Source: Oscillospiraceae bacterium
GTDB lineage: Bacteria; Bacillota; Clostridia; Oscillospirales; Acutalibacteraceae
Assembly (NCBI GenBank): GCA_031268095.1
Contig: JAIRXU010000008.1
Location: 15,622-79,621, forward strand
Direction of reading: 5' to 3'
DNA: 64,000 nt
In this document: positions 8,972 to 13,841 of the stretch, piece by piece
Numbering within the stretch: position 1 is the stretch's first letter
Layout of the letters: each line of letters opens with the position of its first letter
Notes under the pieces: model-generated
Database searches by the model: none
What the model was told of the DNA's origin: nothing
The model's input: the letters and a program-made list of their open reading frames with translations, nothing else
Translations under genes and position numbers: made by a program

Positions 8972-10660
8972 TTACCACGATGAGTTCAGCGCTACAGTGC
9001 GGTTGAACACCGGCCGTTCCGGTGTGCTGTCCGGGTCCAGGCAGAAGTATCCCTGGCGCATGAACTGGGCGGCCTTGGGTGTTTGGGGGACGCTGTCCGA
9101 TTCCTCTGAGAGGTCCGCGCCGACGGTGAATTCGGCCAGGGCGGCCGCGTCAATCTTGCCGCTTTCTATCTTCACCAGGGAATTCGGATTAACCACCGCT
9201 TCGTAATTTTCCTCGGCGGAGGGATTCTCCACGGTGAACAGCCGGTCGTAGAGCCGGACTTCCGCTTCCGCGGCGCTGGCGGCGCTGACCCAATGGAGCG
9301 TTCCGCGGACCTTGCGCCCGTCGGGGGAATTCCCGCCGAAACTCTCGGGGTCGTAGGTGCAGCGCAGAAGCGTCACCTCGCCGGATTCATCCGTTTCATA
9401 TCCCACGCAGCGGACAAAGTACGCGCCCTTCAGCCGAACCTCATTGCCGGGAAACAGGCGGAAATATTTCTTCGGCGGATCGATTTGAAAATCATCCTGC
9501 TCTACGAAAATTTCCCGGGAGAAGGTCACGGCGGCGCTGCCCCATTCCGGATGATCCGGGTGGCGTTCCACCGTAATCTGCTCCGTTTTGCCCTCGGGGT
9601 AATTTTCGATGACCACCCGCAGAGGGCGGAGCACCGCCATGACCCGGGGAACACTTTGATTGAGGTTGTCGCGGACGCAGGCTTCCAGCAGGCCGTAATC
9701 CACAACGCTGAAAGCTTTCGCTACGCCAACGCGCTCCACGAAATCCAGGATGGCGGCCGGCGGGTAGCCCCGGCGGCGCATGCCGCAGATTGTCGGCATA
9801 CGGGGATCATCCCAGCCGGAGACGATGCCTCTCCGGATCATGGCCAGGCATTTACGCTTGCTGGTCAGGCAGTAATTGAGGTTCAGGCGGGCAAATTCAA
9901 TCTGGCGCGGCGGTTCGGCGAAGCCTATTTCCCGGATGAACCAGTCGTATAGAGGCCGGTGGTTCTCGAATTCCAGCGAACAGAGGGAGTAGGTCACGCG
10001 CTCAGCGGCGTCGCTCAGCGGATGCGCGAAATCGTACATCGGATAGACACACCATTTGTCACCGGTCTGATGATGGGGCACATGGGCAATGCGGTAAATC
10101 ACCGGGTCGCGCATGTTGAGGTTGGGCGACGCCATGTCAATTTTGGCCCGCAGCGTCCGCGTCCCGTCCGGAAATTCCCCGGCGGTCATGCGGCGGAACA
10201 GGTCCAGGTTTTCTTTCGCCGGGCGCTCCCGGTAGGGACTGTCTTTCCCCGGCTCGGTCAGCGTCCCCCGGTAATCCCGGACTTCCTCGGCGGTCAGGTC
10301 GCAGACGTAGGCCTTCCCTTTCTCGATCAGCCGAAAAGCGCACTCATGCAGGAAGTCGAAGTAGCTCGACGCGTAGAAACAGTCCTTCCACCGGAACCCC
10401 AGCCACAGCATATCCCGCTGGATGGCCTCGACGTACTCCTCGTCCTCCTTCATCGGGTTCGTGTCGTCAAAACGCAGGTTGAATTCCCCGCCATATTTGC
10501 GGGCCGCCTGGTAACTGATCGAGATGGCTTTTGCGTGCCCGATGTGCAGATAGCCGTTCGGCTCCGGGGGAAAGCGCGTCTGGACGCGGGTGTTGAGGCC
10601 ATTGGCGAGGTCTTCGTCAATGAAATCATGGATGAAGTTGGAGGAGGTGAGTTCGGACAT
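8972..10660 (-). CDS. glnS: glutamine--tRNA ligase
   Basis: Class I signature PEPNGYLHIGHAKA (HIGH) and LTSKRK (KMSKS-like). Full-length similarity pattern to GlnRS, including the C-terminal anticodon-binding beta-barrels. Confidence 0.95.
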   Translation of the reverse strand: MSELTSSNFIHDFIDEDLANGLNTRVQTRFPPEPNGYLHIGHAKAISISYQAARKYGGEFNLRFDDTNPMKEDEEYVEAIQRDMLWLGFRWKDCFYASSYFDFLHECAFRLIEKGKAYVCDLTAEEVRDYRGTLTEPGKDSPYRERPAKENLDLFRRMTAGEFPDGTRTLRAKIDMASPNLNMRDPVIYRIAHVPHHQTGDKWCVYPMYDFAHPLSDAAERVTYSLCSLEFENHRPLYDWFIREIGFAEPPRQIEFARLNLNYCLTSKRKCLAMIRRGIVSGWDDPRMPTICGMRRRGYPPAAILDFVERVGVAKAFSVVDYGLLEACVRDNLNQSVPRVMAVLRPLRVVIENYPEGKTEQITVERHPDHPEWGSAAVTFSREIFVEQDDFQIDPPKKYFRLFPGNEVRLKGAYFVRCVGYETDESGEVTLLRCTYDPESFGGNSPDGRKVRGTLHWVSAASAAEAEVRLYDRLFTVENPSAEENYEAVVNPNSLVKIESGKIDAAALAEFTVGADLSEESDSVPQTPKAAQFMRQGYFCLDPDSTPERPVFNRTVALNSSW

Positions 10661-10708: not shown

Positions 10709-11816
10709 CTATCTTGGCGCATTCGGATTGGTGAACTGTTTTCCAGCCTGCAGTGGCGGCGTCTTGGGTCCGCCTCTCGTATCGGAAATTGGAGATCCTA
10801 TAGATTCTAGTATCTCCGAAACGGCGTTGCTTGCTGCTACACCTCTGAATAGCTTATTAAATTCCAGCGAAATAAAAATTCTCTCGGCTAACTCTGGCTG
10901 ATACGGCGCGCCGGCCGCCTCAAAAAAACGCTTTTTGCATTGCATCTCCAAATCCTCAAGACCATCTGTGACTAAGCGCCGCCGATAATATTGGACTGGG
11001 GTGAATTTTTCAATCTTGGCGCAGTAATCTGGTTAAAAATCGAAAATAAACAGACGAACCGAAGGATCGGTCAACCGCACAAGTATTGTACGCCAATATG
11101 TTTGATCTGTTTTGCCCAGGGAGCTTCCAAATATCACCATCAGCTGACAGTCCGTCATACGCAGCAAAACTTCTTTTCGGGCGGAACGGACGTCAGCGTC
11201 ACTGCATACGATATCCTTCGATATCAAATATTCGTTTTGGCTGGAGAAGCACTCCGCAGAATATTGCGTTGCATTGTCGCACCCAACGATGATAAAATTC
11301 GCCAAGGTTCCATGGAGCTGAAAAAAATTGGCTTCTACTACGGGGATGTTCCTGCCCGCTGCGCGAATGGAATTTCCAATTTTTGGAAAATCGCTTGCGT
11401 CTGTGTAATTGAATGTAGCAACATCGATGTGAATGCGAGAGGATTCGTTCAGGGAACCGCGCAGCCAAGCTTCGAAGTTTTCGCGGGAACCGCGGGACAA
11501 ATATTGGCCAAGCTCAAGAGGAAGCGAATATTTTATACTAGGCATTCTCCGGGACGCATATTTCAAATACTCCTGAAGATCTTCATAGGCATCACAGATT
11601 GCCCCGAAAAATTGTTCTCGCCGTTCTTTGGTTTTCGGCGCTTTGCTTAGATCGCCAAGCGCGTACTCAAAATCAGACCAAGTATTGTAATCCTTCTCGA
11701 TGGCCTGGTAAATCATATTGGTTTCCTTGTTTTCCCGCACATACTTCGACTGATAAAAATCCCGGTAGCTCGTCTTCAGGCCTTGCCGCATTGCCAAACA
11801 TCCACATGATATTCAT
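10709..11816 (-). pseudogene. AbiH-family abortive-infection protein homologue, disrupted by a 5' frameshift and an in-frame TAA
   Basis: GLKTSYRDFY.. and ..MVIFGSSLGKTDQTYWRTI resemble AbiH (PF14253) N- and C-terminal motifs. ATG 11814-11816 gives MNIMWMFGN (compare IIGNGFD) in another frame. TAA at 11033-11035 is followed in the same frame by the 80-aa ORF 10709-10951. The region is AT-richer than its flanks. Confidence 0.55.
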
Positions 11817-11849
11817 ATGTATTGCCCCCGTCGCTGATGTTGCGCGCCC

Positions 11850-12062
11850 TCAGCGGTAAACGCCGGGCTCGTCCCTGTCTATATTGACCGTCCCTCCGCA
11901 TTTGCGACAGCGGTAGACCTTGCGGATAACGCTGACCCAGTATTCTTCCGGCTCCATGCAGACCCACTGCTCGTAGGGACCGTCGAAGAATTGTGTCTCC
12001 TCGACGAATTCCAGGTCGTGGACGGCCTGGTCCGGATTCACTGCCCCGCACTTGACGCACAT
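11850..12062 (-). CDS. C-terminal continuation of the Cys-repeat protein (same frame as 12111-12542, downstream of the in-frame TGA)
   Basis: Contains the last repeat units (..FDGCMCVKCG.., ..YRCRKCGG..). It is in frame with the upstream ORF and has no convincing RBS of its own. Confidence 0.4.
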   Translation of the reverse strand: MCVKCGAVNPDQAVHDLEFVEETQFFDGPYEQWVCMEPEEYWVSVIRKVYRCRKCGGTVNIDRDEPGVYR

Positions 12063-12110
12063 ACAGCCGTCAAAGGCATGACCCTGGCCGCGGTGCTTGC
12101 CGCAGCGAAC

Positions 12111-12542
12111 TCAGGTACAGCCGTCAAAGGTATGCGCCGATTCGTCCGGGTTGATCTCCCCGCATGTTCCGCAGCGACAGCTGTCCCAGGTATGTTTTAC
12201 TTTCCCGCAGCGCTTGCAGGTGCAGCCGTCCCAGTCGTGGTTCTGATCGCGGTGCTTGCCGCAGCGTGTGCAGGTGCAGCCATCCCAGTCGTGATAGACA
12301 AATCCGCATTTGCGGCAACGGCAGTGGTCATCCAGATCATGCATCTCCCGTTTGTCATCAAGATAGTACGCCTTGGTCCCGCACTGCTTGCAAATGCAAC
12401 CGTCCCAGTCATGGTAGGAGAGGCTGCCGTAATAGTGGGAAGCTTTTGCCCCGCAGTCGCTGCTCTCGCAGCCATCCCAATGATGATCCCAAGGTTCCTC
12501 AGCGCTGTAGCATGGAGCGTCCGGGTTGTTTTCGTATTTCAT
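12111..12542 (-). CDS. Cys/His/Trp-rich repeat protein (H-D-W-D-G-C-x-C-x-x-C-G units), ending at TGA 12111-12113
   Basis: ATG 12540-12542 with GAGGAAGG 7 nt upstream. There are six to seven tandem zinc-ribbon-like units. No family recognised. Confidence 0.6.
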   Translation of the reverse strand: MKYENNPDAPCYSAEEPWDHHWDGCESSDCGAKASHYYGSLSYHDWDGCICKQCGTKAYYLDDKREMHDLDDHCRCRKCGFVYHDWDGCTCTRCGKHRDQNHDWDGCTCKRCGKVKHTWDSCRCGTCGEINPDESAHTFDGCT

Positions 12543-12626
12543 CGCGGCACCTTCCTCTGCTCGAATTCATAGCTTTCCCAAGATATCCACCGCCGAACCG
12601 GCGACAAATCCGGCTTTTTGCTGTTG

Positions 12627-12656
12627 TTATCCACATTTTCCACCGGGTTTTCCACC
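12627..12656 (+). promoter_or_regulatory. cluster of three DnaA-box-like 9-mers
   Basis: TTATCCACA (perfect, 12627-12635), TTTTCCACC (12636-12644) and TTTTCCACC (12648-12656), all in the same orientation. They lie about 90-115 nt upstream of the Cys-repeat gene start. Confidence 0.4.
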
Positions 12657-12725
12657 GAGCAAGGGCGAGTTTGACCAAAAACAGGGGAAAATCTTCGGCG
12701 AAACGACGAAAGCGGGCATGACCGT

Positions 12726-13787
12726 TTAGCGCTCATGCAGATTTCCCGTCAGGGTAATTCCCCCGTTCGGAGACAAGGTGGCGATCACGCCGTTCTCTTT
12801 GACAGTGGAAAAAACCGACGTATGAGACACCATCGTCAGATTCCACTTGACGTTGGGGTAGATCTGCCCCAGCCCGTTGGTGACGATCCCGACCTTGGGG
12901 CGCAGGGCGCGCAGGAGGCGCATGGAATTGCTCATCGCGTAGCCATGGTGGCAGAGCTTCAGCAGGTCCACCCGGCCGATTTCCGGCGCCAGGCGGGATT
13001 CCATGCCGTGCAGATTGGATGCGTCGGCGGCCAAGAGGGCTTTCGTCCCGCCGCAGGTTATCAGCGTCAGAACAGAATTATCGTTCTCGCCTTTGTACTT
13101 GGGATTTTCGTAGCTGTCCAGGTTCAGAAAGCGCAGCGTCATGTCTCCGAAGGCGAACGGCTCCGCCGGGGGATGTTCCTCAATGGGGAAACCCCGCTCT
13201 TCCGCGGCGGCCACCACCTCTCGGTGGATGCTGTCAATATCCCAGCTTTCGATTTCATACTCATGCTGGTTGGTGGTTTGCAGCGACCGGAGGTAGCATG
13301 TCTTCACCGTAATATCCGGATCCCGGAGAATCCCGGAGAAGCCTCCCGCATGGTCGTAGTGGTAATGTGTACACAAAATGAAGTCCAGCGTCACCTTGCC
13401 GTCCAGCCCGGCGGCGACCTTCTTGAGGTAGTCGATCACCCGCTGCTCATAGCCTTCCCGCCGGGCGGACTTGCGGGGGTTATTGCTCCCCCAGCCGCTG
13501 TCCACCATCGCGAACCGCCCGCCGCTCTCTAGTAGGATGCAGTCGGAGTTATCGGTATTCAGGAAGTGGATCTTATTGCCCTGCCCGGCGGCTTGTCCGT
13601 CCGATGCTTCTGCGGACCCGCGGTCCGCCCCCGCGGGGTAGCCCGCAAAGGTCTCTTGGGTCACCGGGTATCGCCGCTCGTATTGGTTGCAGAGCAAAAC
13701 GGTCATAATGTCCAGCGCAAAAACGCTGAACAGGATGGCCATCATGACAATGGTGATTATTTTTCCGGCGCGGTGTTTTGCGTTCAC
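12726..13787 (-). CDS. membrane-anchored MBL-fold metallo-hydrolase (ComEC/Rec2-related beta-lactamase domain)
   Basis: HYHYDHAGG (HxHxDH), LLKLCHHG, and an N-terminal TM helix. GTG at 13785-13787 is preceded by AAGGAAGG. An alternative GTG at 13841 abuts the upstream stop. Confidence 0.8.
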   Translation of the reverse strand: MNAKHRAGKIITIVMMAILFSVFALDIMTVLLCNQYERRYPVTQETFAGYPAGADRGSAEASDGQAAGQGNKIHFLNTDNSDCILLESGGRFAMVDSGWGSNNPRKSARREGYEQRVIDYLKKVAAGLDGKVTLDFILCTHYHYDHAGGFSGILRDPDITVKTCYLRSLQTTNQHEYEIESWDIDSIHREVVAAAEERGFPIEEHPPAEPFAFGDMTLRFLNLDSYENPKYKGENDNSVLTLITCGGTKALLAADASNLHGMESRLAPEIGRVDLLKLCHHGYAMSNSMRLLRALRPKVGIVTNGLGQIYPNVKWNLTMVSHTSVFSTVKENGVIATLSPNGGITLTGNLHER

Positions 13788-13841
13788 ATTTGACCTTCCT
13801 TCGCCTGGGGTTGAGGGAGCGCTGCGGACTGGGCGGGACAC

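What the first reader, a model, noticed from the sequence alone, without database searches (positions are those of the whole stretch)
11850..12542. Zinc-ribbon-like H-D-W-D-G-C-x-C-x-x-C-G repeat protein interrupted by an in-frame TGA exactly at a conserved Cys position
Seen: ORFs 12111-12542 and 11850-12062 are in the same frame. They are separated only by TGA (12111-12113) and 16 sense codons. The successive units read HHWDGCESSDCG, HDWDGCICKQCG, HDLDDHCRCRKCG, HDWDGCTCTRCG, HDWDGCTCKRCG, HTWDSCRCGTCG, HTFDGCT*VRCG and HAFDGCMCVKCG, and the protein ends with CRKCGG. The stop replaces the middle Cys of C-x-C-x-x-C. A possible 6-bp stem (CUGCGG-CAAGCA-CCGCGG, with one G.U pair) starts 6 nt after the UGA. 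Known: UGA at a Cys-aligned position is the classic footprint of selenocysteine, but TGA is also one mutation away from TGC/TGT. Inference: the most likely explanation is a recent nonsense mutation or a base-call error, and Sec recoding is a formal alternative. I cannot name the repeat family. It sits next to a defence-type (AbiH-like) gene and behind a DnaA-box triad.
Basis: partly seen in the sequence, partly recalled or inferred. Interest (0 to 1): 0.6.

Follow-up and report, generated by a model that had tools for sequence, protein, structure and literature searches.

The report
Broken gene for unannotated zinc-knuckle repeats
One gene for a cysteine/histidine-rich repeat protein is cut by a stop codon that replaces an invariant cysteine; this is an ordinary knock-out mutation (or a sequence error), not selenocysteine, but the protein belongs to a large repeat family that no database describes.

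Summary
The minus-strand frame 12542->11853 is a single 230-codon gene. It holds eight H-x-W-D-G-C-x-C-x-x-C-G units and a C-terminal cap. It has one in-frame TGA (12111-12113, codon 144), which replaces the middle Cys of unit 7.

Selenocysteine is rejected:
- The 94%-complete genome has no selA, selB or selD. Its only "tRNA-Sec" hit is tRNA-Ser(UGA).
- None of the 16 genomes of the genus has selA.
- TGA ends 45% of the long frames.
- The downstream hairpin is coding-derived (z = -0.52) and Rfam finds nothing there.
- Of 513 family repeats with that position left free, all have Cys. A scan of 185,579 species genomes found no real repeat with TGA there.

About a quarter of all possible nonsense substitutions in this Cys-rich gene hit a Cys codon, so the position is not remarkable.

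The gene lies in a strain-specific stretch next to a decayed AbiH gene. The best reading is a recent TGC->TGA nonsense allele.

The family itself is modestly new. It has at least 1,277 clusters across many phyla and no Pfam, NCBIfam, PHROG or PADLOC model. One His and three Cys are near-invariant per 18-residue unit. The repeats are fused to FISUMP, ankyrin or HEAT domains, and no gene partner is conserved.

The parts
11850..12542 (-). One gene of 230 sense codons plus the terminal TGA, encoding a Cys3His tandem-repeat protein. It is interrupted at codon 144.
   Evidence: Both halves match the same family proteins.
12550..12557 (-). Shine-Dalgarno-like GAGGAAGG, 7 nt before ATG 12540-12542.
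   Evidence: Read from the sequence.
12045..12485 (-). Array of eight H-x-[WFL]-D-x-C-x-C-x-x-C-G units, at residues 20-31, 44-55, 68-80, 84-95, 102-113, 117-128, 137-148 and 155-166.
   Evidence: AlphaFold2 gives pLDDT 86-97 for residues 81-170 with one small beta-hairpin per unit.
12111..12113 (-). In-frame TGA at the invariant middle Cys of unit 7. It is one substitution away from TGC, which is 22 of the 26 Cys codons of the gene.
   Evidence: Cys occupies this position in 513 of 513 family repeats.
12087..12106 (-). 7-bp GC-rich hairpin (GCUGCGG-CAAGCA-CCGCGGC) starting 5 nt after the UGA. It is a by-product of the codons for R-C-G-K-H-R-G.
   Evidence: z = -0.52; 58 of 200 shuffles fold as well. 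One search shows a 5-bp version after unit 4. Rfam finds nothing.
11895..12023 (-). C-terminal cap (H174 ... C194 ... Y-R-C211-R-K-C214-G-G) with a predicted three-stranded sheet. It lies downstream of the stop and is still intact.
   Evidence: The same cap occurs in homologues and in the two paralogues of this genome. The 86 downstream codons stay open, against P = 0.044 for shuffled sequence.
11033..11816 (-). Neighbouring AbiH-family gene remnant at 46% GC. The N-terminal GNGFD-type segment is in another frame.
   Evidence: (PF14253 profile positions 11-259 of 260 only), and the sequence.
12627..12656 (+). Triad of DnaA-box-like 9-mers upstream of the gene. It is an ancestral intergenic element and is not specific to this gene.
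   Evidence: The triad is conserved with the same spacing in most of the 8 related loci.

Best explanation
This is a single accessory gene for a cytoplasmic protein built from eight 12-residue H-x-W-D-G-C-x-C-x-x-C-G units. Each unit is inferred to hold one Zn(II) through its one His and three Cys. A beta-sheet cap ending in a CxxC knuckle follows the units. A single C->A change on the coding strand turned the TGC of the invariant middle Cys of unit 7 into TGA. Translation therefore stops after residue 143. The product loses the metal site of unit 7, all of unit 8 and the cap, so the gene is a recent pseudogene or at best a truncated allele. Shown: the one-frame layout, the invariance of the position, the absence of recoding machinery, and the family. 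Inferred: zinc binding, the direction of the mutation, and that the change is real rather than an assembly error.
For: - One frame and a single stop.
- Both halves belong to one family whose members are uninterrupted.
- With each position left free in turn, the middle Cys is Cys in 513/513 repeats, the His in 513/515, and the other two Cys in 513/531 and 513/515.
- No selA, selB or selD. The only 'tRNA-Sec' hit over the cut-off is tRNA-Ser(tga). selA is absent from all 16 genomes of the genus.
- TGA ends 1007 of 2218 long frames.
- 25% of the possible nonsense substitutions in the gene fall on Cys codons.
- The downstream 86 codons remain open and keep unit 8 and the cap, so the lesion is young.
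- The gene is absent from 60 related genomes. In 8 related loci the conserved PC4 and MBL genes are followed directly by an aaRS gene.
- The adjacent AbiH gene is also damaged, which fits dispensable DNA under relaxed selection.
Against:
- No second copy of the gene exists in the collections searched, so a consensus error cannot be excluded.
- Repeat number varies from 1 to 9 in the family and some members lack the cap, so the 143-residue product might still be functional.
- The gene has genome-like GC (58%) and a good ribosome-binding site, so it does not look long dead.
Confidence: 0.72

Rival explanations
1. Assembly or consensus error. The organism's gene is intact (TGC/TGT), and the TGA is a miscalled base or a minority variant fixed in the MAG consensus.
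For: The genome is a 78-contig MAG with only 20 tRNA genes recovered. The site lies in internally repetitive DNA. Everything downstream is intact. The gene has been sampled only once.
Against: From general knowledge, substitution errors in short-read consensus are much rarer than real nonsense alleles. The repeat units have diverged at the DNA level. The neighbouring AbiH lesion is an indel in non-homopolymer sequence, which points to real decay in this stretch.
Confidence: 0.17
2. The allele is functional despite the stop. Either the 143-residue product with six intact units is enough, or leaky UGA read-through by a near-cognate tRNA (Trp or Cys) gives some full-length protein.
For: Family members carry 1-9 repeats and some have no cap. 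From general knowledge, UGA is the leakiest stop codon in bacteria. The downstream frame is still open.
Against: No specific read-through signal was found. The next in-frame ATG (12060-12062) lies inside unit 8 without a ribosome-binding site. Unit 7 would lack an invariant ligand unless Cys were inserted.
Confidence: 0.08
3. Selenocysteine. The UGA is recoded by SelB and a SECIS element, giving a Sec ligand in place of Cys.
For: The UGA sits exactly at a Cys-aligned position. The local hairpin after it (-17.2 kcal/mol over 48 nt) is more stable than the equivalents after the other seven units (-9.1 to -12.5).
Against: - selA is absent and selB and selD are not found above the curated cut-offs. 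The best selD score is 29 bits against a cut-off of 125. The best selB-like hit is a 401-residue open frame at 184 bits against 242.
- No tRNA-Sec: the hit at 49 bits is tRNA-Ser(tga).
- selA is missing in 16 of 16 genomes of the genus, ten of them at least 90% complete.
- The hairpin has z = -0.52 and is coding-derived, and Rfam finds no family there.
- No Sec/Cys pair exists anywhere in the family. The four TGA pattern hits in 185,579 genomes are all outside reading frames, against at least 118 loci with Cys.
Confidence: 0.02

Closest known systems
Zinc ribbons and zinc knuckles (for example ribosomal protein eL37, RNA polymerase subunits RPA12/Rpo12, NrdR N-terminus, retroviral-type CX2CX4HX4C knuckles)
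   Same: It has a CxxCG knuckle on a short beta-hairpin and four invariant metal ligands per unit. The best, though insignificant, sequence and fold matches are zinc ribbons: eL37 at E = 0.022; RPA12, eukaryotic ribosomal proteins and NrdR at Foldseek E >= 0.4; Rpo12/RpoP at E = 0.021.
   Different: The ligand pattern is H-x4-C-x-C-x2-C, packed into 11 residues and iterated every 18 residues. There is a conserved Trp and a D-G turn. It matches no Pfam or NCBIfam zinc-ribbon model at the default thresholds and no significant structural neighbour.
Bacterial SelB/SECIS-dependent selenoproteins with a Sec/Cys pair (for example E. coli FdhF)
   Same: An in-frame UGA sits at a position that is Cys in all homologues, and a hairpin follows it.
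   Different: There is no Sec machinery in the genome or the genus, no homologue with UGA, and the hairpin is not significant.
Ordinary nonsense pseudogenes in accessory or defence islets
   Same: It is a single-base stop in a strain-specific gene beside a second decayed gene (AbiH). The downstream frame is still intact.
   Different: Nothing material. The only unusual point is that the gene family is undescribed.
FISUMP (Fib_succ_major, TIGR02145/PF09603), ankyrin and HEAT proteins that carry the same N-terminal repeats
   Same: They share the H-x-W-D-G-C-x-C-x-x-C-G module, starting 5-9 residues from the N-terminus. Among 97 family proteins, 16 carry FISUMP, 8 ankyrin and 5 HEAT domains.
   Different: The window protein has no such effector domain. 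It has only the repeats and a small beta-sheet cap, like its two membrane-anchored paralogues in the same genome.

Membership tests
Bacterial selenoprotein (UGA = Sec) | selA, selB, selD and tRNA-Sec are present in the genome | tested here: not met
   Searches cover the window's own genome (94.4% complete). One search finds selA in 0 of 16 genomes of the genus.
Bacterial selenoprotein (UGA = Sec) | A SECIS stem-loop lies immediately downstream of the UGA | tested here: inconclusive
   A 7-bp hairpin exists, but its z-score is -0.52, it is coding-derived, and there is no Rfam match. No dedicated bacterial SECIS predictor was available.
Bacterial selenoprotein (UGA = Sec) | Some homologues carry UGA and others Cys at the same position | tested here: not met
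   No real UGA case was found. All 513 repeats have Cys.
Zinc ribbon / zinc knuckle superfamily | Four conserved Cys/His ligands per unit, including a CxxC knuckle | tested here: met
Zinc ribbon / zinc knuckle superfamily | Significant match to a curated zinc-ribbon model or to a solved zinc-ribbon fold | tested here: not met
   Pfam gives no family for P0001. Only 1 of 97 family members matches each of the models Zn_ribbon_NUD, DZR and Zn_Ribbon_1. The best Foldseek PDB hit has E = 0.42, and the best PDB phmmer hit has E = 0.022.
Zinc ribbon / zinc knuckle superfamily | Stoichiometric metal binding | not testable with these tools
   This needs ICP-MS or a PAR assay on recombinant protein.
AbiH (PF14253), for the neighbouring gene only | Full-length match, including the N-terminal G-N-G-F-D segment, in one frame | tested here: not met
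   The match covers profile positions 11-259 of 260 (E = 2.4e-21). The MNIMWMFGN segment is in another frame.
Known anti-phage defence systems (PADLOC) | The repeat protein matches a defence-system component, or is conserved next to one | tested here: not met
   There is no PADLOC hit. The 143 neighbours of family genes fall into 216 Pfam families, none seen more than 4 times and no AbiH among the families listed.

The most novel reading that the evidence does not exclude
The H-x-W-D-G-C-x-C-x-x-C-G repeat is an undescribed, widespread class of tandem Cys3His mini zinc fingers with an 18-residue period and one metal per unit. It would form a rigid cytoplasmic rod or tether at the N-terminus of variable binding domains (FISUMP/lectin-like, ankyrin, HEAT) or behind a two-helix membrane anchor. 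The window holds a freshly broken copy of it.
Probability: 0.5. Interest if true: 0.4.

Novelty: new variant of a known kind. Interest (0 to 1): 0.27.

Why it matters
The headline idea of selenocysteine in a zinc site does not hold, and the stop codon is an ordinary lesion. The residual value is at family level. A Cys3His repeat is present in at least 1,277 protein clusters from Bacillota, Bacteroidota, Chloroflexota, Planctomycetota, Verrucomicrobiota, Desulfobacterota and other phyla. Nearly all of these come from uncultured organisms. The repeat has no model in Pfam, NCBIfam, PHROGs or PADLOC, and no paper was found that mentions the motif. A curated model would name many "hypothetical proteins". 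It would also stop gene callers from splitting or mis-annotating broken copies such as this one.

Tried and rejected
- A second copy or allele of the gene: none was found. The best hits are 39% identical in the 5.8-billion-protein set and 46% in the 1.8-billion representative set. Two metagenome contigs pattern scans returned nothing. Sixty related genomes returned nothing.
- The search for related loci with alignment A1 failed because no stretch was conserved enough. IUPAC DNA patterns replaced it.
- An alternative genetic code (TGA as sense) was rejected. TGA ends 45% of long frames, the genome is 59.7% GC, and GlnRS points to Acutalibacteraceae.
- Rfam scan of 11700-12800 at E <= 10 found nothing.
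- Fold searches against PDB and BFVD gave no hit with E <= 0.001.
- A literature search for the motif strings gave one irrelevant hit.
- A functional link to AbiH or to another conserved partner was rejected.
- A link to the DnaA boxes was rejected. The triad predates the gene at this site.
- Which four residues share one metal (within one unit, or a CxxC of one unit with H...C of the next) could not be decided, because model coordinates are not returned.

Full report
**1. The observation**

On the minus strand the frame from ATG 12540-12542 to TGA 11850-11852 is open for 230 codons, apart from one TGA at 12111-12113, which is codon 144. They are in the same frame and 16 sense codons apart. 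A regular-expression pass recovers the eight units exactly as quoted. The stop replaces the middle Cys of unit 7, HTFDGCT*VRCG. The gene has a GAGGAAGG ribosome-binding site 7 nt before its ATG. It is 58% GC with 71% GC3, like the genome at 59.7%.

**2. Selenocysteine**

The window lies on contig C53 of a 2.56-Mb, 78-contig assembly estimated at 94.4% complete.
- The SelA model finds nothing.
- The best SelD match scores 29 bits against a cut-off of 125.
- The SelB model finds only other translational GTPases, all below the cut-off. The best scores 184 bits against 242, in a 401-residue frame.
- ARAGORN finds no tRNA-Sec among the 20 tRNAs recovered.
- The single Rfam tRNA-Sec hit over threshold (49 bits) is tRNA-Ser with anticodon TGA. 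The same model also rings over its cut-off in 5 of 14 control genomes, more than the SelA, SelB or SelD models do (2 each).
- SelA is absent from all 16 genomes of the genus, ten of which are at least 90% complete. Incompleteness of this one MAG is therefore not the explanation.
- TGA terminates 1007 of 2218 frames of at least 300 codons, so TGA is the ordinary, and commonest, stop.
- The hairpin after the UGA exists as a 7-bp stem at 12087-12106, but the 67-nt region folds no better than its shuffles (z = -0.52; 58 of 200 fold as well).
- The stem is made by the codons for R-C-G-K-H-R-G, and a 5-bp version follows unit 4. Over 48 nt the local fold is somewhat more stable than after the other units: -17.2 against -9.1 to -12.5 kcal/mol.
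- Rfam finds nothing in 11700-12800 even at E <= 10.

**3. The family at this position**

The read-through protein (P0001) finds 35 homologues in the 5.8-billion-protein set, the best at 39% identity and none with a Pfam domain covering the repeat. A full HMMER scan of 1.84 billion representatives finds 1,277 clusters at E <= 1e-3 and 440 at E <= 1e-10. In both sets the window's two halves appear only as separately called fragments, and no intact near-identical copy exists.

I scanned one genome for each of 185,579 species with a back-translated pattern.
- H-x-W-D-G-C-x-TGA-x-x-C-G gives four hits. None lies in an open frame or near another repeat, so they are chance matches.
These contain 318 recognisable repeats, and none has a stop at any Cys position.
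- With the middle position left free, 513 of 513 repeats in 267 family proteins have Cys. The His is 513/515 and the other two Cys are 513/531 and 513/515.

So there is no Sec/Cys pair in the family. The stop removes an invariant residue.

**4. Is a stop on a Cys surprising?**

No. In the gene with TGC restored in silico for counting only, 106 single-base changes give a stop codon and 27 of them (25%) fall on Cys codons. TGC is the usual Cys codon here (22 of 26), and TGA is one transversion away.

**5. Age and context of the lesion**

The 86 codons after the stop remain open (P = 0.044 for shuffled sequence). They still encode a complete unit 8 and the C-terminal cap (H...C...Y-R-C-R-K-C-G). 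The same cap is found in homologues and in the two short membrane-anchored paralogues of this genome on C55 and C20. The lesion is therefore young, or not real.

The gene is not found in 60 related genomes. In 8 loci from the same genus the conserved PC4-like and MBL-hydrolase genes are followed directly by a GluRS-like gene. In a ninth locus the contig ends before that point. Here the repeat gene, a 46%-GC AbiH remnant and glnS follow instead. The AbiH ORF matches PF14253 only from profile position 11. Its N-terminal segment (MNIMWMFGN) is in another frame, so two adjacent accessory genes each carry a disabling lesion. GlnRS is 70% identical to that of Acutalibacteraceae MAGs from animal guts.

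**6. What the protein is**

The consensus unit from 253 repeats is H-D-W-D-G-C-K-C-x-R-C-G-K-T-R-D-E-x, with a modal period of 18 residues. AlphaFold2, run with a 30-sequence alignment, gives pLDDT 86-97 for residues 81-170. It predicts a small beta-hairpin in every unit (W-D / x-C strands around the D-G turn) and a three-stranded sheet for the cap. The N-terminal 70 residues are of low confidence.

Foldseek finds no significant neighbour in the PDB or BFVD. The best, insignificant, hits are zinc-ribbon proteins such as RPA12, eukaryotic ribosomal proteins and NrdR. phmmer against PDB sequences gives eL37 at E = 0.022. Pfam, NCBIfam, PHROGs and PADLOC have no model for the repeat. No paper in the library contains the motif in a relevant sense.

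Four near-invariant ligands per unit, one of them in a CxxCG knuckle, make one tetrahedral Zn(Cys3His) site per unit the most likely chemistry. This is inference. I could not decide whether the four ligands come from one unit or from two neighbouring units.

Family architecture takes three forms:
- Repeats at the extreme N-terminus followed by FISUMP (16 of 97), ankyrin (8), HEAT (5), DUF6273 (3), FGE-sulfatase (2) or TPR domains.
- Two transmembrane helices, then the repeats, then the cap.
- Soluble repeats plus the cap, as in this window.

Neighbouring genes are not conserved: 143 neighbours fall into 216 Pfam families, none seen more than four times. A repeat array fused to ligand- or protein-binding domains, without a signal peptide, suggests a structural, tethering or oligomerising module rather than an enzyme. 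The adjacency to AbiH is incidental.

**7. Verdict**

The TGA is an ordinary nonsense lesion in a dispensable gene (0.72). Less likely, it is a consensus error of the MAG (0.17). A tolerated truncation or leaky read-through cannot be excluded (0.08). Selenocysteine is effectively refuted (0.02). The part worth keeping is the description of a large, unannotated Cys3His repeat family.

Noticed in passing
window 12627-12656; L020-L027 (MBL-aaRS intergenic gaps): The DnaA-box triad is a perfect TTATCCACA with two weaker boxes at +9 and +21. It is conserved across the genus with the same orientation and spacing, roughly 50-130 nt beyond the end of the MBL-hydrolase match and before a GluRS-like gene. 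This holds in most of 8 related loci (L025 shows two boxes and L020 only degenerate ones). It is therefore an ancestral regulatory or titration element. In this genome the repeat gene, the AbiH remnant and glnS have come to lie behind it.
   Followed up: partly
window 11033-11816 (-): This is an AbiH-family gene at 46% GC in a 60% GC genome. The Pfam match starts at profile position 11, and the conserved N-terminal segment is encoded in a different frame, so a small indel lies in its most conserved motif. It is a decayed defence gene.
   Followed up: partly
window 8972-10660 versus L020-L027; G000 C61:17429-18751: In relatives a GluRS-like gene follows the MBL gene. In this genome glnS sits at that place and the closest GluRS-like match (49% identity) is on contig C61. 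The stretch between the DnaA triad and the aaRS gene is a rearrangement or insertion point.
   Followed up: partly
G000 C55:22565-22696 (L009 1351-1935, -) and C20:15715-15840 (L010 1378-1815, -): The same genome holds two intact short paralogues of 194 and 145 aa. Each has hydrophobic N-terminal segments (probable membrane anchor), one or two HDWDGCxCxxCG units, and the same Y-x-C-x-x-C-G cap.
   Followed up: partly
L033, L046, L082, L038, L097, L098 (genome-contig loci): Family genes often occur as two or three adjacent paralogues in one locus, for example three in a Christensenellaceae chromosome. This suggests local duplication and diversification.
   Followed up: no
window 12726-13841 (-): The MBL-fold hydrolase upstream has weak similarity to the ComEC C-terminal domain and to the MBL components of defence systems (LmuA-, DRT- and Avs1a-associated models, E = 1e-7 to 1e-11). 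It is conserved with the PC4-like gene throughout the genus, so it is probably a housekeeping gene.
   Followed up: partly
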